Origin: an uncultured Bacillales bacterium
GTDB lineage: Bacteria > Bacillota_I > Bacilli_A > RF39 > UBA660
NCBI GenBank assembly: GCA_947571655.1
Contig: CANOYR010000003.1
Span: forward strand, 3,408 to 67,407
Direction: 5' to 3'
Length of the DNA: 64,000 bases
Shown here: piece after piece, positions 2,349 to 63,502 of the stretch
How positions within the stretch are numbered: position 1 is the first letter of the stretch
Layout of the letters: each line of letters opens with the position of its first letter
Position numbers and translations under genes: made by a program
Notes under the pieces: generated by a model
What the model was told of the DNA's origin: nothing
What the model saw: the letters and a program-made list of their open reading frames with translations, nothing else
The model's database searches: none

Positions 2349-5036
2349 ATGAAAAAGCAATTGTATGATAAAAGAGCATATATTGTAACTATATTATTAG
2401 TATTTGTAATCTTTCTCTTTCTTTTTATAGGTAAAGGGATTTTTCCATTTGGAAAAAATTCTTTGATTTGGGGAGATATGCACGATCAAATTACAGCTTT
2501 TTACTATCATTTTTATGATAGTTTTTATGGGAATAGTTCTTTATTGATTGATTTTACTACCAGTGGTGGAGTGAATTTTTTTGGAGTTCTTTGTTATTAT
2601 ATTTTAAGTCCTCTTAGCTTTCTTTTATTGCTTTTTCCAAGAGAAGATATTTATTTAGCGGTATCGATTATTGTCGCATTAAAAGTTTTAATTTCTAGTC
2701 TTACGTGCCTTTATTTTATTCGTTTTTATTTTAAAAAATTGCCAAGTTTTTTAAGTATTTTTTTAGCGATTTGTTATGCTTTTTCGGGATATAGTTTATC
2801 TATGTATCAAATTACTCCATGGATTGATATTGTGTATTTATTTCCACTATTAATGATAGGGTTTAAGAAGGTATTGGATTTACAAAAACCGACTTGGTAT
2901 ATTCTTATATTAACGTTATCCTTTATTTGTTGTTTTTATATTTCTGTGATGCTTATTTTCTTTCTTCTTTTATCAGCTTCTTTTTATCTTTTTATATATA
3001 AAGAAAAAGAAGAAAGGAAAAAGGGAATTTTGGCACTTGGAATTTCTACTATTTTGAGTTTACTTCTTTCTTTATTTGTTTTAGTTCCTTCTTATATGCA
3101 GATATCTATTTCTTCTAGACTTGGATTTCGTTTGGGTGAGCTTTTAAATTCTAGGGCAGGACCTTTAACAGATAAAATATCTTTCTTTATGTTTGGTGGA
3201 ATTGTTTATTTAGGAATTTTATTTTTATTAAAACATTTAAAAAAAGACTCTAAATTTTTTCTTTGGTATTTTTCTACTTGTCTAATTGTTGGAATTCCTG
3301 TTATTATTGAACCAATTAATAAACTTTGGCATTTTGGTTCTTATGCTTTTTTTCCTTATCGATTTGGTTTTATTATGATTTTTTTACTAATTATAGGGTC
3401 GTGTCAAGGTTATACATTAGAATTAGAGGTTAAGGATAAGAAAAAAAAGAAAAGGGAACATCCTTTTTTGATAATTTTCGTTACGTTAATTTCTAGTATT
3501 GTAATTTCTTTTTGTACTTATAATAACTATTATGATTTTCAAAGTGCACTTTCTAAATTAACGATTTCTACGGATCATTCTTTGTTGTGGTTTTTACTCA
3601 CTACAACACTTTTGGTATTTTTAACGTGTTATTTTATTTATCGATATACAAAATCTAATCGAACACTTTGTACTTGTTGTGTTGCAGTTATTACTTTGGT
3701 TCATATTTTAAATAATAGTTTTTTATATTTTGGTGTTGATTTTAATCAGGAAAAATTAATGAGTCAATATGAAAGTTTAACGGAATTATCGAAAACTTAT
3801 GAAGAAGGAAATTATTATCGTGTAAAAAATTTAAGTTCTAATTTTATGATGAATAGTGGGATGGTAATGAAATATCATACGTTAGATCATTTTACATCTT
3901 TAACAGACCGTAATAATTTACAAAGCTTAAAAAAGCTTGGATATTCTTCTATGTGGGTTAAGACTTTTTCAAAAGGAGGAACCTTGTTTAGTGATGCTAT
4001 TTTAGCTAATCGCTATATTTTAAGTAGATCTCCGATAGAAAGTCCTTATTACCAATTTGTTCAAAGTTATGGAAATTTAAAATTTTATGAGCATTTAAAA
4101 ACGCCTTCTTATGGTTATTTAATTGATAAAAATATCGATATTTTAGATGAAGAGAATTCTTTTACGATTCAAAATCAAATGTATCAGGCAATTAGAAAGA
4201 GTAAGGAAGATATTTTTAAAATTTATGATGATTGGCAATTAGATAATATTAAAAAAACAGAAAAAGATGAGAAAATTTCTTATCAAATTATCGATGAAGA
4301 TGCTTATAACTTTATAGAGCAAACAATTCCTATTCATCAAAAACAAGTTTTATATTTAGAAATATTAAAAGATTTAGATAATACTATTAATTCTGAAATT
4401 TATCAAAAATTTAATATTTATGTAAATGATCAATTATGGCAAAAAAATGCACTTACTGCTAATAATAATGGTGTCATTGATTTAGGAACTTTTGAACATG
4501 AGGATGTCGATATTAAAATTGAGCTATTAGGTGATATTGAAATTTCTAATTTGACCCTTGCTACGATGGATGTTTTGAAGTATGAAAGTTTTATTGAGGA
4601 AAATTATGTACCATTAAAAATTAAATATAATAAGAATAAAATTCAAATTGAAGTAACTTCAGAAAAAAACCAAATTTTATTTTTACCTATTTCTTATAAT
4701 GATGGGTATGAGAGTGTTGTAAATCAACAAAAGGTGTCAGTAGAAAAGGTATTTGGAAATTTTGTTGGAATTCCTTTAGAAAAGGGAGATAATAAGATTG
4801 AAATATCTTTTCTACCTCCAGGATTTAAAATATCGACTGCAATTAGTGTTTTTGCATTACTTGTTACAGTTCTTTTTCTTCATAAAAAGTGGTATTTTAA
4901 ATTGCTTGAGTCTTCAACTTTTCAAAAAGTTGCGAGTGTTTGTTATTACAGTATTTATTCACTCTTTATACTTTTTGCTTATGTTGGTTTGACGATTGTC
5001 TTTATTTTGTCACATTTTATCTATTTTCAAGTTTAA
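2349..5036 (+). CDS. YfhO-family polytopic membrane protein (putative glycosyltransferase of cell-envelope polymers)
   Basis: 895 aa with many TM helices at the N-terminus and a large C-terminal extracytoplasmic domain. The size and topology are typical of YfhO. Confidence 0.6.
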   Translation: MKKQLYDKRAYIVTILLVFVIFLFLFIGKGIFPFGKNSLIWGDMHDQITAFYYHFYDSFYGNSSLLIDFTTSGGVNFFGVLCYYILSPLSFLLLLFPREDIYLAVSIIVALKVLISSLTCLYFIRFYFKKLPSFLSIFLAICYAFSGYSLSMYQITPWIDIVYLFPLLMIGFKKVLDLQKPTWYILILTLSFICCFYISVMLIFFLLLSASFYLFIYKEKEERKKGILALGISTILSLLLSLFVLVPSYMQISISSRLGFRLGELLNSRAGPLTDKISFFMFGGIVYLGILFLLKHLKKDSKFFLWYFSTCLIVGIPVIIEPINKLWHFGSYAFFPYRFGFIMIFLLIIGSCQGYTLELEVKDKKKKKREHPFLIIFVTLISSIVISFCTYNNYYDFQSALSKLTISTDHSLLWFLLTTTLLVFLTCYFIYRYTKSNRTLCTCCVAVITLVHILNNSFLYFGVDFNQEKLMSQYESLTELSKTYEEGNYYRVKNLSSNFMMNSGMVMKYHTLDHFTSLTDRNNLQSLKKLGYSSMWVKTFSKGGTLFSDAILANRYILSRSPIESPYYQFVQSYGNLKFYEHLKTPSYGYLIDKNIDILDEENSFTIQNQMYQAIRKSKEDIFKIYDDWQLDNIKKTEKDEKISYQIIDEDAYNFIEQTIPIHQKQVLYLEILKDLDNTINSEIYQKFNIYVNDQLWQKNALTANNNGVIDLGTFEHEDVDIKIELLGDIEISNLTLATMDVLKYESFIEENYVPLKIKYNKNKIQIEVTSEKNQILFLPISYNDGYESVVNQQKVSVEKVFGNFVGIPLEKGDNKIEISFLPPGFKISTAISVFALLVTVLFLHKKWYFKLLESSTFQKVASVCYYSIYSLFILFAYVGLTIVFILSHFIYFQV

Positions 5037-51806: not shown

Positions 51807-51883
51807 GGACCCTTAGCTCAGTTGGTTAGAGCATTCGGCTCATAACCGAACGGTCGATGGTTCGAGTCCATCAGGGTCCACCA
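51807..51883 (+). tRNA. tRNA-Met (anticodon CAT; could alternatively be tRNA-Ile2/k2C)
   Basis: 77-nt cloverleaf with 7-bp acceptor GGACCCT/AGGGTCC, D-arm GCTC-AGTTGGTTA-GAGC, anticodon loop CTCATAA, T-arm GGTTCGAGTCC, and encoded CCA. Confidence 0.85.
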
Positions 51884-51891
51884 CAAAATAT

Positions 51892-51976
51892 GCGGGTATG
51901 GCGGAATTGGCAGACGCACTAGACTTAGGATCTAGCGCCGCAAGGCTTGCAGGTTCAACTCCTGTTACCCGCACCA
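51892..51976 (+). tRNA. tRNA-Leu (anticodon TAG), class II with long variable arm
   Basis: GCGGGTATGGCGGAATTGGCAGACGC...anticodon loop CTTAGGA...variable arm...GGTTCAACTCCTGTTACCCGCACCA. Confidence 0.85.
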
Positions 51977-51988
51977 ATCGACATATAG

Positions 51989-52010
51989 CCCTTGATTTTC
52001 AAGGGTTTTT
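51989..52010 (+). terminator. Intrinsic terminator after the tRNA pair
   Basis: CCCTTG-atttt-CAAGGG followed by TTTTT. It overlaps the integrase stop codon. Confidence 0.5.
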
Positions 52011-53238
52011 ATATGCCCAAAATTATCTCTGGTCTTGTTTTGGTCTTGTTACTATTCTTTATTTCATCAATATAACTAATACTATCGAAATAATCTTTAG
52101 GAATCAAATGAATATATGTTTTCATTGTTTCATCAACGCTGGAGTGACGTAATCGCTTTGAAACTACCGTAATTGGCAGTTTTAATGATATTAACCAAGA
52201 GGCAAAAGAATGGCGAAAATCGTGTAATCTAAAGTTTCCTTGAGTAATATTTGTTTTCTTCAAATATTTATTTACAGCATTACAGAGTGAATTCTCAGAT
52301 ATTGGTTCATCTTTACCAAATATAAACCATGTTTCTTTAAAGTTAGGATCTTTCATACAAATTAACTTCCATTGGTGTATTTTCTCATTTAATTGTTTAT
52401 CTAGAGGCATTACATCTTTAGAAGATGGTGTTTTTGGATCTTTTAAATATCTTTTTTGTCCTTTCTTTTTTTTACTCATTGTATGATTTACAGTTAGAGT
52501 AGAATTTTCATAAGAATAATCTATCCATCTAAAGGCCATTAATTCTCCCGGTCTAGGCCCATTTGAGTAAAACAAATCAAAGATAGTATGATATTTATCA
52601 TCTTTTTTCGTTACTTCTAATAGTTTTAAATACTGTTCATAGGAAATTATATTGTATTTTTTTTCTTTTCTTTGATTAGCAATCATCTTTTTAGTGCCAA
52701 ACTTTCCGACTTTTCTAATTGGATTAGTCACAATTAACTCATTACTAACCGCAAATTCATACATCGCATTTACATAAGAATGTATTGCGTTTAAAAAAGA
52801 AAGTGAGTATTTTTTTTCTTTTTTTCCTCGAATGTATGTGGAATCTATTTTTTTGTCTTGCCATTGCTTATATTTGTCGCTAGTGTATGATATTATTTTT
52901 TTTACTCCTTCAGTTGGTAAAAAATGTTGTTCTAATCTGTTTTCAATAATCATTAAGCTATCATCATCTATTTTATGTTTTTTTGATTCTATGTACATCT
53001 TGAAAAGTTCATTATTGTTTATTTTTCTTACACCATTTGTAGATAATTGATTTTTATTATTGCTTAGTTCTTTAATAGCGTTTTCATATCCTTCTTTACC
53101 TAACCACATATTTCCATGATTGTCTAATCTTTTTGTAATCTGTTTTCCATTTACATAGGGTCTAATATAATATCTCGTTTGTCCATTTACTTTTTCTGGA
53201 TATTCATAAATAGGTATTGTTTTCTTTGATTTTGGCAT
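52009..53238 (-). CDS. int: Tyrosine site-specific integrase
   Basis: C-terminal catalytic domain with R...HDFRHSFAS...RLRHSSVDETMKTYIHL (R-H-R-Y). Confidence 0.85.
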   Translation of the reverse strand: MPKSKKTIPIYEYPEKVNGQTRYYIRPYVNGKQITKRLDNHGNMWLGKEGYENAIKELSNNKNQLSTNGVRKINNNELFKMYIESKKHKIDDDSLMIIENRLEQHFLPTEGVKKIISYTSDKYKQWQDKKIDSTYIRGKKEKKYSLSFLNAIHSYVNAMYEFAVSNELIVTNPIRKVGKFGTKKMIANQRKEKKYNIISYEQYLKLLEVTKKDDKYHTIFDLFYSNGPRPGELMAFRWIDYSYENSTLTVNHTMSKKKKGQKRYLKDPKTPSSKDVMPLDKQLNEKIHQWKLICMKDPNFKETWFIFGKDEPISENSLCNAVNKYLKKTNITQGNFRLHDFRHSFASWLISLKLPITVVSKRLRHSSVDETMKTYIHLIPKDYFDSISYIDEIKNSNKTKTRPEIILGI

Positions 53239-54059: not shown

Positions 54060-54485
54060 CTACTTTCTTTCTATGCAATTAAATTTTAATACTTCATCTT
54101 CTTCAAGTTTCTTCATTTTTTCAATATACGAAATTTTATCATTAGAATTGTATATAGAAGTAAAACTTGAATGAACAATTTTACCATTTCGGCTGGCTTT
54201 GCAATCTTGCACTTTTTCATCTGTCTCTTTACACCATTCTTTATGAGATTGTTCATTTTCAATTGCTTCCGAGAGTGTTTCATAACCAAAAAATGCAACT
54301 ATTTTTTCTTTTAAAATATATTTTCGACTTCTATCTAAATAATAGGTGTATTCAAGATAATTTTCGTCTTCCTTACTACCACTTGAGCAAATTGTATAGG
54401 GGTGAGGTTCGTTAGTGGTAAACGCAATGGTTCCAATTAGTAAAATACTAACAATGGTGATAATAATCAAAACTTTCTTTTTCAT
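54060..54485 (-). CDS. Membrane-anchored hypothetical protein (co-transcribed with repressor)
   Basis: MKKKVLIIITIVSILLIGTIAF N-terminal TM anchor. The start overlaps the repressor stop (ATGA). Confidence 0.35.
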   Translation of the reverse strand: MKKKVLIIITIVSILLIGTIAFTTNEPHPYTICSSGSKEDENYLEYTYYLDRSRKYILKEKIVAFFGYETLSEAIENEQSHKEWCKETDEKVQDCKASRNGKIVHSSFTSIYNSNDKISYIEKMKKLEEDEVLKFNCIERK

Positions 54486-54814
54486 TTTATTTTTTTCTCC
54501 TTTAACACATCGACAATCTGTAGGGCTTTATGTAATTCATCAATTGTTAAGTCATCACCAACCATTAATCCAGATTGTTTTAATAATCGTTTTATTTGCT
54601 CAATTTCTTCTAAACCATCAATTTCATTCCCCAATAAATAATCAATTGTTACTTGAAATTGATTTGCTATTTCTTTAATTATTTCTAATGATGGTTGACT
54701 AATACCAGATTCCCAATAGGAAACTGTATTTTTTGCAACACCCAATTTTTCTCCTAGTTCTTGTTGAGTTAAATTTGCTTGTTTTCTTAGCTCTTTTAAT
54801 TTGTTTCCAAACAA
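54482..54814 (-). CDS. XRE-family HTH repressor (cI-like)
   Basis: HTH KLKELRKQANLTQQELGEKLGVAKNTVSYWESG. The likely start is TTG after the RBS aaaggtggag. The ORF-track start, GTG at 54826, is also possible. Confidence 0.7.
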   Translation of the reverse strand: MFGNKLKELRKQANLTQQELGEKLGVAKNTVSYWESGISQPSLEIIKEIANQFQVTIDYLLGNEIDGLEEIEQIKRLLKQSGLMVGDDLTIDELHKALQIVDVLKEKKIK

Positions 54815-54831
54815 GTGAATCTCCACCTTTT

Positions 54832-60053: not shown

Positions 60054-60958
60054 TGTTAACTAACAAATGTAATTTACCAGAACCGATATATAACTTTTTA
60101 AAAAGTGATTATCAACCAAAAGAAAAACAATATAGTGTGACTACTATATTGAATCCAACAAGACAAATAATTTTAAAAAGAAGATATAACAATGCGATAG
60201 ACCAAGATTGCTCAGATTTGATCTGGACAATGCTTGGAACAGCATTTCATCTTGTTTTAGAAAATTCAAAAGCAGGAGATAATCAATTACAAGAAGAATA
60301 TTTAAAACAAGAGTTAAGCTGCTTAGATGATAGATTAAAAGGTTATTATTTAAGTGGAAAAGCTGACTTATTAGATATCAAGCAAAAAAAGATTATTGAT
60401 TATAAAACAACGAGTTCATTCAAATTTATAAAAAAAGACTTTGAAGACTATCGTTTACAATTATTAATTTATGCTTGGTTATTTAAAAAGATTGGTTATG
60501 AAGTAAATAAGGGAGAAATAGTTGCAATACTTCGTGATTGGCAAAGAAGTAAGGCAAAATTTGATAAATCATATCCACAATTACAAGTGCAAACTATTAC
60601 TTTTGAATTTACTGACAAAGATTTTGAAGATATAGAAATATATATCAAGAATCGATTTTTAGAAATAAAGGCATACGAGGACAAGCCGGATAATGAACTT
60701 CCAGAATGTACTATGGAAGAACGTTGGGCAAGTCCAACAATATATGCAATAAAGAAAATAGGAAATAAAAAAGCAATGAAATTACATGAGAATGAAAAAG
60801 AAGCTATAGATCATCTTAAAAATCTAAATTCAAAATTTGGAGACATATACGAAATAGAAGTTAGAGAGTCTTGTGATGGAAGATGTGAAAACTACTGTTC
60901 ATGTAATAAATATTGCAAATATTATCAAGAAAAATATTTAGATAAAGGAGAAAAATAA
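60053..60958 (+). CDS. PD-(D/E)XK nuclease with C-terminal Fe-S cysteine cluster (Cas4/AddB-nuclease-like phage exonuclease)
   Basis: Motifs D...DLLD...IIDYKT and QLLIYAWL. C-terminal cysteines CDGRCENYCSCNKYC. Confidence 0.55.
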   Translation: MLTNKCNLPEPIYNFLKSDYQPKEKQYSVTTILNPTRQIILKRRYNNAIDQDCSDLIWTMLGTAFHLVLENSKAGDNQLQEEYLKQELSCLDDRLKGYYLSGKADLLDIKQKKIIDYKTTSSFKFIKKDFEDYRLQLLIYAWLFKKIGYEVNKGEIVAILRDWQRSKAKFDKSYPQLQVQTITFEFTDKDFEDIEIYIKNRFLEIKAYEDKPDNELPECTMEERWASPTIYAIKKIGNKKAMKLHENEKEAIDHLKNLNSKFGDIYEIEVRESCDGRCENYCSCNKYCKYYQEKYLDKGEK

Positions 60959-60959
60959 A

Positions 60960-61382
60960 ATGGGAATTGATTTTAGTGAAAATATATTTAGTATTGATAC
61001 AAATGGACTTTTTCGTCGATTAGGAGTAGCTAGAAATTTATCAGAAAAAAAAGTAAATGGAAGATTAGATGAAATTGAATCCTATATTATAAATGATAAA
61101 GCAGTCATTATCTTTTGGAAAAATGGTAAAAAAACAGTAGCAACTGTAGATAAAAGAGATACATTTGACAAAGAATTCGGATTCTGTCTAGCAGTATTCA
61201 AATATATAATTTATGACATTTCAAGAAATAGTTATAAAAGAAAACTTGATTGTATTAAAGAAGATAAAATGAAAGATTATCTATTAGAATATTTTGATGA
61301 AGTAACTTTTAAAGATATAGAAAAGTCTAGGAAATTTCTTAGAAGTTTGAAAACAACAGGAAAGAGGGAAAAAATATGTTAG
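60960..61382 (+). CDS. Hypothetical protein
   Basis: ORF only. Confidence 0.3.
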   Translation: MGIDFSENIFSIDTNGLFRRLGVARNLSEKKVNGRLDEIESYIINDKAVIIFWKNGKKTVATVDKRDTFDKEFGFCLAVFKYIIYDISRNSYKRKLDCIKEDKMKDYLLEYFDEVTFKDIEKSRKFLRSLKTTGKREKIC

Positions 61383-61801
61383 AAGATATTGATAGAACAG
61401 ATTGGATTGAAGAAAGTAAAAATGCTTTCAATATTATTGGAAAAAATATTGGATTAAAAGATTTGATTAGAAAAGATAATTCCGAAGAAGAATATAAAAC
61501 TAACAAATTATTTATTAATTCTAAAGAAGATGAAACAATTGAACATCTTACTTGCAAGATCTATATATTAATTGAAAAATGGTTTTTATCAAGAGGAATA
61601 TTACCAGAATATATAGTTTTATCTAAGGAAGATTATAAGAAATTGTTAGATAGAACAATCGTTGTTGATGACAATTGTATTTTAGGAATAAAGATTGATT
61701 TATTAAGGGAGAAAAGAAATTATGAATCAAACAGAAATTCAAATTTTAGTTTTAGGAATCGTAAATATTCTACTGGCAATAGACATTCTTTTGCTAGATA
61801 G
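61376..61801 (+). CDS. Hypothetical protein (3-prime end uncertain; tail is low-complexity and overlaps an alternative small ORF)
   Basis: ORF in the track. The final ~30 codons read RNYESNRNSNFSFRNRKYSTGNRHSFAR, which is not protein-like. Confidence 0.25.
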   Translation: MLEDIDRTDWIEESKNAFNIIGKNIGLKDLIRKDNSEEEYKTNKLFINSKEDETIEHLTCKIYILIEKWFLSRGILPEYIVLSKEDYKKLLDRTIVVDDNCILGIKIDLLREKRNYESNRNSNFSFRNRKYSTGNRHSFAR

Positions 61802-61823
61802 AAAAGTTAGGAAAGGAAAATAG
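61722..61823 (+). CDS. Candidate 33-aa single-TM peptide (not in ORF track)
   Basis: RBS agggag at 61707-61712. ATG 61722 to TAG 61821-61823 reads MNQTEIQILVLGIVNILLAIDILLLDRKVRKGK. It ends 2 nt before the lipoprotein gene start. Confidence 0.3.
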   Translation: MNQTEIQILVLGIVNILLAIDILLLDRKVRKGK

Positions 61824-61825
61824 AT

Positions 61826-62419
61826 ATGAAGAAAGGTTTAAAATTATTAAGCATTATGGTATTAGTTTTATTTATTACTACAGGTTGTAGTTTAGAAGAA
61901 TCAGAAACTAATTCTAAGTTAAATAAAAATATAAAAAACTCAACTAGCGCCTCTTCTAATATTATTGAACATCAACCAGCACCTACTGATTTAGATTACT
62001 CATTAGAAAGATATAACTTAATTAAAAGAGCTTATTGGGTTAATGGAATGAGAGATAAAGCAAGAACACTTCCAAGCCCTATAGCTGATATGCCACTTGG
62101 ATATATTGTATTAATGAGTGATAGTGGTGCAATTGTAGGAAAATTTGTAGTAGATGGGAAAGTTAGTAGTTTAGGAAGTTATTTATTTCCGTCATATATA
62201 GATCAAGATAGTGATGGAGATACACCGGGTAGTGGTGCAGGTTATAGTAGTGGTGTTTACTCTGTAGAAATACCTGGTATTGATGGTGCTTATGGTAGCA
62301 ATGTAGAAGGTATATTCTTTTTTACAACGGATGGGAAATATATTGAATGGACTGGAGATTATTTATATAGTGATATCCCATTTGAAGTCAATAATCCAAT
62401 TGTTAAGATAGGAGAATAA
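61826..62419 (+). CDS. Lipoprotein (hypothetical) with Gly/Ser/Asp-rich region
   Basis: MKKGLKLLSIMVLVLFITTGCS (lipobox LFITTGC) in a 197-aa protein. Confidence 0.45.
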   Translation: MKKGLKLLSIMVLVLFITTGCSLEESETNSKLNKNIKNSTSASSNIIEHQPAPTDLDYSLERYNLIKRAYWVNGMRDKARTLPSPIADMPLGYIVLMSDSGAIVGKFVVDGKVSSLGSYLFPSYIDQDSDGDTPGSGAGYSSGVYSVEIPGIDGAYGSNVEGIFFFTTDGKYIEWTGDYLYSDIPFEVNNPIVKIGE

Positions 62420-62512
62420 AATGAGAAATAATTTTACTAATAAAACATTTATAGTAGCATTTTTTACAATACTTTGTATTGCTGTAATAATGCTTAGTAG
62501 GGGGCTTAGGTA

Positions 62513-62902
62513 ATGGGATATGTATTAGGTTGTTTTGGCGGATTAATAGTAGCACTATTATTGATATTTGGAGTTTATACAACCTTCTTCCCTAATGGAA
62601 GAGCAATGATTAATTCTTATGATAATATGATGAAAAAAGTTGACGACAGAACACAATATGAAACAAGAAAAAAAGTAGAAGATACAGCTCGAGCAAGTAT
62701 TAGTTCCTACAAGACTGATAAAGAAACTTATGAGATGTATAAAGACAGTGATAACTTAGAAAAACAATCATGGGCAGAACAAGCTAAAATGAGAGCTAAC
62801 AAAACAGCAAATATTTATAATGAGTATATGCTTAAAAATAGTTATGTCTTTGATGGAAATATTCCATCAGATATAGATTATCAATTAGAAATTTTAAAAT
62901 AG
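62513..62902 (+). CDS. N-terminally membrane-anchored hypothetical protein
   Basis: Hydrophobic N-terminus GYVLGCFGGLIVALLLIFGVY, then a charged soluble domain. Confidence 0.35.
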   Translation: MGYVLGCFGGLIVALLLIFGVYTTFFPNGRAMINSYDNMMKKVDDRTQYETRKKVEDTARASISSYKTDKETYEMYKDSDNLEKQSWAEQAKMRANKTANIYNEYMLKNSYVFDGNIPSDIDYQLEILK

Positions 62903-62911
62903 GAGGAATAC

Positions 62912-63169
62912 ATGGAATTAGAATTAAAAGTATTAGAAGAAATCGATACATACGAAGATGAAGTTAGATATCAAGAAATAAATGATAAAGAAAACAATAT
63001 TGCTTTCAGTGTTAGCAATATGGACTTTTGCCCAGAAGACGCAATTATCGGCAGAAGTTTATTTACGGCTATTGATTATATTAATACATTAAATAAAGGT
63101 ATCGAATTAGCAAAAAAAGGATATGAAAAAGTAATATTTAAAAAGGAGAAAATAAATGATGAAAATTAA
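62912..63169 (+). CDS. Hypothetical acidic protein
   Basis: ORF only. Confidence 0.3.
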   Translation: MELELKVLEEIDTYEDEVRYQEINDKENNIAFSVSNMDFCPEDAIIGRSLFTAIDYINTLNKGIELAKKGYEKVIFKKEKINDEN

Positions 63170-63491
63170 TATAAGAAAAGGTGAATATGGTTATTATACC
63201 AAAGTAAAAAACATACAAAATGATGAAGAAATTATTGCTTATATGAATGTTCAATTTCCTAAAGATAAAGAACCAGCAGAAACGGCATTACAAATTAATA
63301 TAAAAGATATGTTTCTTAGTTGTTATAACAGTCAAGAGGGAACAAAAGTAAAATTAGTTGTTACAGATTATGAAGTATTAAGAATATATGATGATTCTCA
63401 AAATACACAAGAAAGTGAAGTGTCTCAAACTAACGAACATGAAAACTTTCAAATAGATTTAGATTTAAGTGATGAATTACCGTTTGAATAG
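63156..63491 (+). CDS. Hypothetical acidic protein
   Basis: ORF only. Confidence 0.3.
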   Translation: MMKINIRKGEYGYYTKVKNIQNDEEIIAYMNVQFPKDKEPAETALQINIKDMFLSCYNSQEGTKVKLVVTDYEVLRIYDDSQNTQESEVSQTNEHENFQIDLDLSDELPFE

Positions 63492-63502
63492 GTAGTGATA
63501 AC

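What the first reader, a model, noticed from the sequence alone, without database searches (positions are those of the whole stretch)
61376..62902. Membrane-targeted gene cluster inside the phage early region: hidden 33-aa TM peptide, lipoprotein, and membrane-anchored protein
An RBS (AGGGAG) and ATG at 61722 open a 33-codon ORF that encodes a single hydrophobic helix with a basic tail, MNQTEIQILVLGIVNILLAIDILLLDRKVRKGK. It ends 2 nt before a lipoprotein gene. It overlaps the out-of-frame, non-protein-like tail of the annotated 141-aa ORF. A membrane-anchored 129-aa protein follows. Envelope-targeted proteins in the replication/recombination region are unusual. They may be an exclusion or abortive-infection-like module or a toxic-peptide system.
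Basis: seen in the sequence. Interest (0 to 1): 0.55.

Follow-up and report, generated by a model that had tools for sequence, protein, structure and literature searches.

The report
Uncharacterised phage lipoprotein–membrane protein module
A Fusobacterium-type prophage carries, in its early operon, four tightly packed envelope genes whose core is a lipoprotein and a membrane-anchored helical protein; this pair recurs in thousands of phages, belongs to no described family, and has no known function.

Summary

- **The 33-aa ORF (61722-61823) is probably a real gene.** Its ATG, Shine-Dalgarno (SD) site and stop are kept in four diverged relatives. Substitutions are conservative in its frame (pN/pS 0.31) and unconstrained in the overlapping ORF141 tail (1.66). 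Homologs that lack it also lack the tail. Three control alternative-frame ORFs lose their start codon in relatives.
- **The "trio" is not a unit.** The conserved unit is the lipoprotein plus the 129-aa protein. They are adjacent in all 38 phage loci where downstream DNA was available. The two families hold at least 5810 and at least 2503 clusters at 90% identity. Neither matches Pfam, PHROGs, NCBIfam, PADLOC or PDB.
- **The pair behaves as an exchangeable cassette.** In the closest relatives, 61834-62893 is replaced at identical breakpoints by a Band_7/SPFH membrane protein, while the 33-aa ORF stays.
- **The pair is not a spanin.** It occurs in phages of monoderm hosts.
- **The slot between the two genes** holds truncated type IV prepilin N-termini in sister phages.

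Best guess, at low confidence: an early-expressed envelope module that excludes superinfecting phage. The function is untested.

The parts
61376..61801 (+). ORF141, a soluble early protein of unknown function. Its last ~26 codons (from 61722) overlap the 33-aa ORF and look like an unconstrained read-through tail.
   Evidence: Six homologs were found. pN/pS is 0.42 in the body and 1.66 in the tail. The 128-aa homologs (L042) and the 79-aa homolog (L035, ending ...KIDIRKA*) lack the tail. No Pfam, PHROG, NCBIfam or PADLOC hit.
61705..61711 (+). Shine-Dalgarno site (AAGGGAG) for the 33-aa ORF, 10 nt upstream of its ATG.
   Evidence: Read from the sequence. It is kept as GGGAG or AGGAG in L041, L044 and L045.
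61722..61823 (+). tm33: a 33-aa single-pass membrane peptide. The N-flank is acidic and the C-terminal tail strongly basic, which predicts N-out/C-in. It is probably a real gene.
   Evidence: Four variants keep the ATG and stop, and their substitutions are conservative I/L/V, D/N and K/R changes. pN/pS is 0.31. Variable sites by codon position are 9/4/10 in its frame and 10/9/4 in the ORF141 frame. Control ORFs lose their starts.
61826..62419 (+). 197-aa lipoprotein (lipobox ITTG|C). It is the core member of a very large uncharacterised phage family with a conserved C-terminal beta-rich domain, motif DGxYGxNxxGIFFFTxDGxYxEW.
   Evidence: At least 5810 clusters at 90% identity and 518 representatives at 50% identity, nearly all 70-232 aa with no added domains, one of 261 aa. 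Homologs in actinophages, rhizobiophages and a Tenacibaculum phage keep the lipobox Cys. No family or PDB sequence match.
62421..62513 (+). tm30: a 30-aa single-pass membrane peptide in the slot between the lipoprotein and the 129-aa gene. It is probably a diverged relative of the truncated-prepilin mini-ORFs of sister phages and has lost their G-1 and E+5 hallmark residues.
   Evidence: ORF and SD. It was called as a gene in L041, L047 and L049. The same slot holds N_methyl-positive 29-32 aa ORFs in L015, L038, L039 and L060-63. The window peptide itself does not match N_methyl.
62513..62902 (+). 129-aa bitopic membrane protein: an N-terminal TM helix followed by three long helices. It is the constant partner of the lipoprotein in phages of Firmicutes and Fusobacteria.
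   Evidence: The AlphaFold2 (AF2) model has pLDDT 85 and helices at 2-25, 27-47, 49-76 and 82-113. At least 2503 clusters. It lies directly downstream of the lipoprotein in 38 of 38 informative loci. Flank charges weakly favour N-in/C-out. Fold searches return only generic helical bundles.
61834..62893 (+). Exchangeable cassette (lipoprotein, tm30, 129-aa). In sister phages a single Band_7/SPFH membrane-protein gene replaces it at the same breakpoints.
   Evidence: blastn breakpoints against L044 and L045. The 279-aa Band_7 gene is in L045.
62912..63169 (+). p85, a small soluble protein that flanks the cassette. It is present with tm33 in both cassette types and absent together with tm33 in L042.
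   Evidence: The deletion in L042 spans window 61716-63144. An 82-aa gene lies downstream of the Band_7 gene in L045.

Best explanation
**What is shown**
- The region is a translationally coupled run of four envelope-targeted genes: tm33, lipoprotein, tm30 and the 129-aa bitopic protein.
- It sits at the distal end of the prophage's early (replication/recombination) operon.
- Its core is a lipoprotein plus a TM-anchored helical protein, a pair conserved in many phages of Firmicutes-like and Fusobacterium hosts. The lipoprotein alone extends to virulent phages of Actinobacteria, Rhizobium and Bacteroidota.
- In this lineage the pair is an exchangeable cargo cassette. tm33 is a separate, lineage-specific small membrane gene that overlaps the tail of ORF141.

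**What is inferred**
- The genes are made early after induction or infection.
- The lipoprotein domain and the helical domain of the 129-aa protein meet on the outer face of the cytoplasmic membrane. There they change the envelope so that further phage genomes cannot enter, or so that progeny are not wasted on the infected cell.
- That would be lytic-cycle superinfection exclusion, working like T4 Imm/Sp or T5 Llp. In sister phages a truncated pilin would add a block on type IV filaments.
For: **Targeting signals**
- The lipobox Cys is invariant.
- The TM helix of the 129-aa protein is modelled with confidence.
- tm33 and tm30 have hydrophobic cores averaging about 2.8 on the Kyte-Doolittle scale.

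**Operon context**
- The genes follow a DnaB-like helicase, a Rad52-like recombinase and a PD-(D/E)XK exonuclease on the same strand, with gaps of -1 to 2 nt.
- No internal promoter or terminator stands out.
- The same position, in the plus-strand operon downstream of the replication genes (and upstream of the terminase where the locus reaches it), is seen in JD-Fnp3, Javan173 and L056-L063.

**Conservation of the pair**
- The pair is conserved in 38 of 38 informative loci.

**Signs of an accessory competition gene**
- Exact cassette replacement by a Band_7/SPFH membrane protein.
- Whole-segment absence in L042.
- Tandem lipoprotein paralogs in L026-L030.

**Link to a known exclusion strategy**
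- Sister phages insert a 29-32 aa ORF that passes Pfam N_methyl between the two genes.
- Phage-encoded pilins, including truncated PilA, have been shown or proposed to block pilus-dependent phage (PMC12952977).

**Fit with a lytic-cycle role**
- By my own knowledge, not checked here, the Rhizobium ~150-kb phages and the Arthrobacter and Microbacterium phages that carry the lipoprotein are virulent. That fits a function in the lytic cycle.
Against: - There is no homology to any known exclusion protein. Pfam, which by my recollection includes the Ltp lipoprotein family, gave nothing, and neither did PDB.
- There are no experimental data.
- The lipoprotein is strongly conserved: 55-67% identity across many gut phages, and the motifs are recognisable in actinophages and rhizobiophages. 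That fits a universal target or an enzyme-like role better than a fast arms race over receptors.
- The genes are not in the lysogeny module, so they probably do not protect the lysogen.
- The lipoprotein fold could not be modelled (pLDDT 48.6), so no structural clue is available.
- The topology of the 129-aa protein is only weakly predicted.
Confidence: 0.38

Rival explanations
1. The pair serves the phage's own lytic development at the envelope. It could be spanin-like or control lysis timing, or it could anchor or remodel the membrane or cell wall for replication, assembly or release. Exclusion would not be its job.
For: - The architecture resembles a two-component spanin: a lipoprotein plus an N-terminal-TM protein with long helices.
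- Conservation is strong and the family is very large, which suits a housekeeping phage function.
- The genes are co-transcribed with lytic genes.
Against: - The pair occurs in phages of hosts without an outer membrane: Streptococcus phage Javan173 and a Mycoplasmatota MAG. The lipoprotein also occurs in Arthrobacter and Microbacterium phages.
- It lies in the early region just upstream of the terminase, not beside a holin or endolysin gene.
- The gene order is the reverse of spanins, and the lipoprotein is a 197-aa globular protein.
- The pair is dispensable. Close relatives replace it or lack it.
Confidence: 0.2
2. The module is a host-takeover device aimed at a conserved envelope machine, such as type IV filament or competence machinery, peptidoglycan synthesis, or a membrane protease. 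It would reprogram host physiology or disarm a membrane-acting host defence rather than block other phages.
For: - High conservation across very different hosts suggests a universal target.
- Truncated prepilin ORFs are inserted between the two genes in sister phages.
- The alternative cargo at the same site is an SPFH/Band_7 protein. By general knowledge, not tested here, that class organises membrane microdomains and regulates membrane proteases.
Against: - No similarity to pilus-assembly or cell-wall proteins was found. The NCBIfam FilE hit is far below its cut-off (16.9 against 100 bits).
- The window's own tm30 has lost the prepilin motif.
- This reading overlaps with the exclusion hypothesis if the target is also a phage receptor.
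Confidence: 0.17
3. The 33-aa ORF is not translated. Only ORF141, with its full 141-aa product, is real, and the apparent conservation of the small ORF reflects nucleotide-level or RNA-structure constraint.
For: - ORF141 is full length (140-141 aa) in four variants.
- Only four variants exist, so the statistics are thin.
- The stop-containing third frame also gives a low pN/pS (0.26), which shows how noisy this test is.
- The RNA around the site folds somewhat better than shuffled sequence (z = -2.33).
- Gene callers did not call the small ORF.
Against: - The ORF141 tail has pN/pS 1.66 and varies least at third codon positions (10/9/4), the opposite of a coding frame. The tm33 frame shows 9/4/10 and only conservative changes.
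- The SD site, ATG and stop are kept in all four variants, while control ORFs lose their starts.
- Homologs without tm33 end soon after the conserved ...IDLLREK motif.
Confidence: 0.2
4. tm33, or tm30, is a toxic membrane peptide of a type I toxin-antitoxin or abortive-infection kind, held in check by the neighbouring proteins.
For: Its size, single TM helix and basic C-terminal tail resemble type I toxins.
Against: - No toxin family hit.
- No Rfam antitoxin RNA on either strand.
- No promoter or terminator of its own.
- It is embedded in, and translationally coupled to, a long operon.
- No PADLOC hit for the neighbours.
- The downstream partner can be exchanged.
Confidence: 0.05

Closest known systems
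T4 Imm and Sp (Spackle), and T5 Llp: early-expressed envelope proteins that exclude superinfecting phage
   Same: These are small envelope-targeted proteins, either membrane or periplasmic proteins or a lipoprotein. They are made from early lytic genes, can be lost without stopping replication, and act at the site of DNA entry or at the receptor (PMC7677548, PMC11436027 and bioRxiv 10.64898/2026.03.26.714494, listed).
   Different: There is no sequence similarity. The lipoprotein here is three times the size of Llp and is conserved across hosts with unrelated receptors. Unlike llp, it does not sit next to a receptor-binding protein gene. The function here is untested.
Ltp-type lipoproteins of Streptococcus thermophilus temperate phages (TP-J34)
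   Same: Both are phage-encoded lipoproteins exposed on the outer face of the membrane in monoderm hosts. Ltp is involved in superinfection exclusion (PMC3952083, listed).
   Different: By my recollection, Ltp is expressed from the prophage and lies between the integrase and repressor genes. This gene lies in the early lytic operon. There is no Pfam hit of any kind, and this protein has a constant TM partner.
Two-component spanins (lambda Rz/Rz1 type)
   Same: Both pair a lipoprotein with a protein that has an N-terminal TM helix and a long helical extracytoplasmic part.
   Different: The pair is found in phages of monoderm hosts. It lies outside any lysis cassette. The gene order is reversed, the lipoprotein is large and globular, and the pair is dispensable in close relatives.
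Phage-encoded pilins (P-FimU, P-PilA and truncated PilA of Pseudomonas phages)
   Same: Sister phages carry ORFs of 29-32 aa that pass the Pfam prepilin N-terminal methylation model. Truncated phage PilA of ~60 residues has been described and proposed to block pilus-dependent infection (PMC12952977).
   Different: The ORFs here are only about half that length, essentially the leader plus the alpha1-N helix. They sit between two unrelated envelope genes. The copy in this window has lost the G-1 and E+5 hallmarks and fails the model.

Membership tests
Bacterial lipoprotein (Lgt/LspA substrate) | A signal peptide with a basic n-region, a hydrophobic h-region and a lipobox ending in an invariant Cys. 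| tested here: met
   The signal peptide reads MKKGLK-LLSIMVLVLFI-TTG|C, and by eye it fits the PROSITE-type lipobox rule. Cys21 is invariant and Gly20 is kept in at least 90% of 68 homologs. The Cys is also kept in the Floof, RHph_Y68 and Gundel_1 homologs. No SignalP-type predictor was available.
Two-component spanin | An i-spanin with an N-terminal TM helix and a helical periplasmic domain. | tested here: met
   The AF2 model of the 129-aa protein shows a TM helix at 2-25 followed by three long helices.
Two-component spanin | Restricted to hosts that have an outer membrane. | tested here: not met
   The pair is present in Streptococcus phage Javan173 and in a Mycoplasmatota MAG.
Two-component spanin | Encoded in the lysis cassette next to the holin and endolysin genes, with a small proline-rich o-spanin. 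| tested here: not met
   The pair lies at the end of the early region, upstream of the terminase, in JD-Fnp3 and Javan173. In this window it follows the recombination genes. The lipoprotein is 197 aa with a conserved globular domain.
Ltp-type superinfection-exclusion lipoprotein | Sequence membership in the Ltp lipoprotein family, and location in the lysogeny module. | tested here: not met
   No Pfam family was hit by the window protein or by 13 diverse homologs. No PDB sequence was hit. The gene is on the lytic strand about 7 kb downstream of the cI-like repressor gene.
Prepilin-type N-terminal cleavage/methylation domain (Pfam PF07963), tested on tm30 | A match to the N_methyl model, that is, the G|F-T-L-I-E motif followed by a hydrophobic helix. 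| tested here: not met
   The window's tm30 gives no hit. The peptides in the same slot in L015, L038 and L039 score 32.8, 23.6 and 26.8 bits against a cut-off of 21.2.
Type I toxin or small toxic membrane peptide, tested on tm33 | A match to a known toxin family, and a cognate antisense RNA with its own promoter. | tested here: inconclusive
   No Pfam toxin family was hit. No Rfam RNA was found in 60500-63500 on either strand. No convincing local promoter or terminator was found. A new kind of antisense RNA cannot be excluded without RNA-seq.
Known anti-phage defence systems (PADLOC) | A match of any module protein to a defence-system model. | tested here: not met
   ORF141, the lipoprotein, the 129-aa protein, p140 and p85 gave no hits at E <= 0.1.

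The most novel reading that the evidence does not exclude
The lipoprotein and its TM-anchored helical partner, with a mini-pilin inserted in some phages, would be a previously unrecognised and very widespread early phage system. It would act on a universally conserved envelope machine, such as the DNA-entry route or type IV filament and competence machinery, to shut the infected cell to competitors. It would be shared by virulent and temperate phages of both monoderm and diderm bacteria. tm33 would be a new overlapping-gene micro-protein that accompanies exchangeable membrane cargo.
Probability: 0.2. Interest if true: 0.72.

Novelty: new variant of a known kind. Interest (0 to 1): 0.5.

Why it matters
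- **A large family with no name.** A protein family with thousands of members, spread over phages of at least five bacterial phyla, has no entry in Pfam, PHROGs, NCBIfam or PADLOC and no known function. It carries clear envelope-targeting signals and a constant partner, so it is an easy target for experiments.
- **If it excludes other phages or rewires the envelope,** it would bear on phage therapy against Fusobacterium and on how gut and oral phages compete.
- **Small genes that annotation misses.** tm33, tm30 and the 29-32 aa truncated prepilins are concrete examples of small phage membrane genes that annotation misses (tm33) or leaves unnamed. tm33 is a clean case of an overlapping gene that can be detected from its substitution pattern alone.

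Tried and rejected
**Family searches.** Pfam, PHROGs, NCBIfam and PADLOC were run on all ORFs of the module and on 14 diverse lipoprotein homologs. Nothing reached significance. Weak hits to DUF4969, TrsH, Phage_VG64 and Lysis_col cover only the signal peptide.

**PDB sequence profiles.** No match for either family.

**Structure.**
- The AF2 model of the lipoprotein, built from a 68-sequence alignment, failed (pLDDT 48.6). A Foldseek search with it gave only noise and was disregarded.
- afdb50 was unavailable.

**More copies of ORF141 or tm33.** Nothing was found in the phage collection by tblastn, in the IMG/VR and GTDB protein scans, or in DNA-pattern scans of genomes, viral contigs and metagenomes. 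Only the four Logan/ENA variants exist.

**Domain fusions.** None were found. 149 of the 150 listed representatives are 70-232 aa, and the only longer one is 261 aa.

**Ideas tested and set aside.**
- tm33 as a partner of SPFH genes in general: rejected, because the phiFN37 prohibitin gene has no such upstream ORF.
- Programmed frameshift joining ORF141 to tm33: judged unlikely. There is an in-frame TAA 17 nt upstream of the ATG, a conserved SD site, and homologs that end without a TM segment.
- Spanin: rejected on host range and gene position.
- Rfam: no hit.
- Literature searches found no description of this family.
Full report
**Setting**

The last 12 kb of the window is the left end of a prophage. 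It is integrated next to tRNA-Leu (51892-51976). The prophage carries:
- a tyrosine integrase (52009-53238, minus strand) and a cI-like repressor (54482-54826, minus strand);
- a long plus-strand early operon with a DnaB-like helicase, a Rad52-like recombinase and a PD-(D/E)XK exonuclease.

GC content is 25-32%. The nearest isolated phages infect Fusobacterium. The finding lies at the distal part of this operon.

**Observation**

- ORF141 at 61376-61801;
- a 33-codon ORF, tm33, at 61722-61823. Its SD site AAGGGAG lies 10 nt upstream, and an in-frame TAA at 61703-61705 makes it a separate ORF;
- a 197-aa lipoprotein gene that starts 2 nt after the tm33 stop;
- a 129-aa protein with an N-terminal TM helix.

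It has a strong AGGAG site. It starts 1 nt after the lipoprotein stop, and its own stop overlaps the start of the 129-aa gene (TAATG). The region is therefore four envelope-targeted ORFs in tight translational coupling. No promoter-like or terminator-like site inside the module exceeds what shuffled sequence gives.

**Is tm33 real?**

ORF141 has only six homolog clusters among 5.8 billion and none in the phage, IMG/VR or GTDB scans. I fetched their contigs.

Four variants, 82-92% identical in DNA here, keep the ATG, the SD site and the stop of tm33. The peptides are:
- MNQTEIQILVLGIVNILLAIDILLLDRKVRKGK
- MTQTEIQILILGIANILLAIDILLLDRKVRKGK
- MTQTEIQILILGVIDILIAIGILLLNRKIERKK
- MTQTEIQILILGIIDIIIAIDILLLNKKIERKK

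Nearly all the changes are I/L/V, D/N or K/R. In the ORF141 frame, the same nucleotide changes give radical replacements.

| Region and frame | pN/pS | Variable sites at codon positions 1/2/3 |
|---|---|---|
| Overlap, tm33 frame | 0.31 | 9/4/10 |
| Overlap, ORF141 frame | 1.66 | 10/9/4 |
| ORF141 body | 0.42 | not counted |

The pattern in the ORF141 frame is the reverse of what a coding frame shows.

Further support:
- Three control alternative-frame ORFs nearby lose their start codon in at least one relative.
- Homologs that lack tm33 also lack the tail. The 128-aa proteins of L042 end 13 residues after the ...DILKERK motif. A 79-aa relative in L035 ends at ...KIDIRKA*, just before its lipoprotein gene.

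The ORF141 tail is therefore best read as a by-product of the overlap, and tm33 as the selected frame.

Caveats:
- There are only four variants.
- The stop-containing third frame also scores low (0.26).
- The local RNA folds slightly better than shuffled sequence (z = -2.33).

I put the chance that tm33 is a real gene at about 0.75-0.8. Its acidic N-flank and +4 C-flank predict N-out/C-in (positive-inside rule; an inference).

**Is there a trio?**

No. tblastn of the module proteins against 40 phage and IMG/VR loci that carry a lipoprotein homolog gave these results:
- The 129-aa homolog was found in 38 loci. The other two end at a contig edge.
- It always lies directly downstream of the lipoprotein gene.
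- tm33 and tm30 were found in none.

The reverse also holds: tm33 occurs without the lipoprotein. In L044 and L045, homology to the window runs up to 61833 and resumes at 62894. The stretch between holds one 279-aa Band_7/SPFH membrane-protein gene instead of lipoprotein, tm30 and the 129-aa gene. In L042 the whole of 61716-63144, from tm33 through the cassette to p85, is missing.

So the lipoprotein/129-aa pair is a mobile, exchangeable cassette. tm33 together with p85 flanks a slot that accepts different membrane cargo. phiFN37 carries both a prohibitin gene and the pair but has no tm33-like ORF.

**The conserved pair**

The lipoprotein family has at least 5810 clusters at 90% identity. A profile search finds 518 representatives at 50% identity. 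Nearly all of those listed are 70-232 aa, with no domain fusions. The 129-aa family has at least 2503 clusters.

Pair members are found in:
- Fusobacterium phages phiFN37 and JD-Fnp2, 3 and 5;
- Streptococcus phage Javan173;
- gut phage Phass-1;
- many gut and oral metagenomic phages;
- a Mycoplasmatota MAG.

In every locus I examined, the pair sits in the plus-strand operon downstream of the replication genes. Where the locus reaches the terminase gene (JD-Fnp3, Javan173, L060-L062), the pair lies upstream of it.

More distant lipoprotein homologs, at 30-36% identity, occur without the partner. They lie among nucleotide-metabolism and early genes in Microbacterium, Arthrobacter, Rhizobium and Tenacibaculum phages. 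All three that I translated keep a lipobox Cys.

Residues invariant across the whole range are S59, E61, N64, Y93, K112, D153, G154, Y156, G157, I163, F164, F166, T167, D169 and E174.

No library recognises either protein.

Structure prediction gave mixed results:
- The 129-aa protein models well (pLDDT 85): a TM helix and three long helices. Fold searches return only generic bundles.
- The lipoprotein model failed (pLDDT 48.6). Its fold is unknown beyond a helix-then-strands pattern, and the Foldseek result obtained with it is noise.

Flank charges weakly favour N-in/C-out for the 129-aa protein. That would put its helical domain in the same compartment as the lipoprotein domain.

**The slot between the two genes**

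Most loci have no gap between the two genes. A Fusobacterium-type subgroup has a small ORF there:
- L015: MKSKGFTLIELLAVIIILSIIVIMVASAIGGL
- L038, L039 and L060-63: MKKGFTL(T/I)ELLAAIIIIVIIILLVIGVIR

All three sequences pass the gathering threshold of the Pfam prepilin N-terminal methylation model. They are prepilin leaders plus the alpha1-N helix and nothing more.

The window's tm30 aligns to them position for position. It has N in place of G-1 and T in place of E+5, and it fails the model. Its only other copies are identical in protein: L041 at 98% DNA identity, and L047 and L049 with the same window DNA. Selection on it therefore cannot be tested.

Phage-encoded pilins that block pilus-dependent phages have been described, and so have truncated PilA of about 60 residues (PMC12952977).

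**Mechanism**

Shown:
- the envelope-targeting signals;
- the operon position;
- the conserved pairing;
- the cassette exchange;
- the link to mini-pilins.

Inferred: the module is made early in lytic growth and changes the envelope so as to exclude further phage or spare progeny. It would work like T4 Imm/Sp or T5 Llp. I give this about 0.38.

Its weak points:
- no homology to known exclusion proteins;
- strong conservation across hosts with unrelated receptors;
- no experimental data.

Rivals:
- a function in the phage's own envelope steps (0.2). The spanin version of this is rejected on host range, gene position and dispensability;
- takeover of a conserved envelope machine (0.17);
- tm33 is spurious (0.2, independent of the others);
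- a toxic-peptide or abortive-infection system (0.05).

**Novelty and score**

The pair is a large, undescribed phage family. If the exclusion reading holds, it is a new variant of a known kind of system. tm33 is a likely unannotated overlapping micro-gene.

Interest is moderate, 0.5. Specialists would not find an envelope cargo in an early operon astonishing. But the size and breadth of an unnamed family with an obvious experimental handle, together with the 29-32 aa mini-pilins, make it worth following up.

Noticed in passing
window 62421-62513 (+): A second hidden small ORF, tm30 (30 aa, one TM helix, strong AGGAG SD). It fills the whole gap between the lipoprotein and the 129-aa gene, and its stop overlaps the next start (TAATG). 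Gene callers called it in the relatives L041, L047 and L049.
   Followed up: yes
L015 ~3526-3624; L038 215-304; L039 134-223; L060 4911-5000: In sister phages the same slot holds ORFs of 29-32 aa, for example MKKGFTLIELLAAIIIIVIIILLVIGVIR. They pass the Pfam N_methyl (prepilin N-terminal) threshold, so they are extreme truncated type IV pilins encoded by phages. The precedent is the ~60-residue truncated PilA of Pseudomonas phages (PMC12952977).
   Followed up: partly
window 61834-62893 versus L045 1618-2431 and L044 from 3456: A clean cassette swap. The lipoprotein, tm30 and 129-aa genes are replaced at identical breakpoints by one Band_7/SPFH (prohibitin-like) membrane-protein gene of 279 aa. 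In L042 the whole of 61716-63144 is absent.
   Followed up: yes
L026 273-794 and 976-1551; also L027, L029 and L030: Two tandem, diverged lipoprotein paralogs precede a single 129-aa partner gene.
   Followed up: no
L056-L059 5402-6091; L060 and L061 5704-6396, and the matching gene in L062 and L063: A short (229-230 aa) Phage_integrase-family gene follows the pair inside the early operon of several unrelated temperate phages. It follows the pair directly in L056-L059 and after one SpoVG-like gene in L060-L063. L057-L059 also show a separate full-length integrase at the prophage end.
   Followed up: no
L064 1797-2135 (phiFN37, upstream of its prohibitin gene): A 112-aa protein with repetitive GNV.../NGN... 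beta-strand-like repeats, which looked bactofilin-like to me by eye, lies directly upstream of the phage prohibitin gene.
   Followed up: no
window 51807-51976 and 52009-53238: tRNA-Met and tRNA-Leu(tag) lie immediately beside the prophage integrase gene. tRNA-Leu is the likely attachment site.
   Followed up: partly
window 62982-63092 (+): A 36-aa hydrophobic alternative-frame ORF inside p85 looks like another hidden TM peptide. It loses its ATG in L041 (AAG) and L045 (GCG), so it is probably spurious. It served as a negative control.
   Followed up: yes
window 61680-61840 (+): The RNA that spans the tm33 start and the lipoprotein start folds moderately better than shuffled sequence (-26.5 kcal/mol, z = -2.33). 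It might regulate translation. No Rfam family matches.
   Followed up: partly
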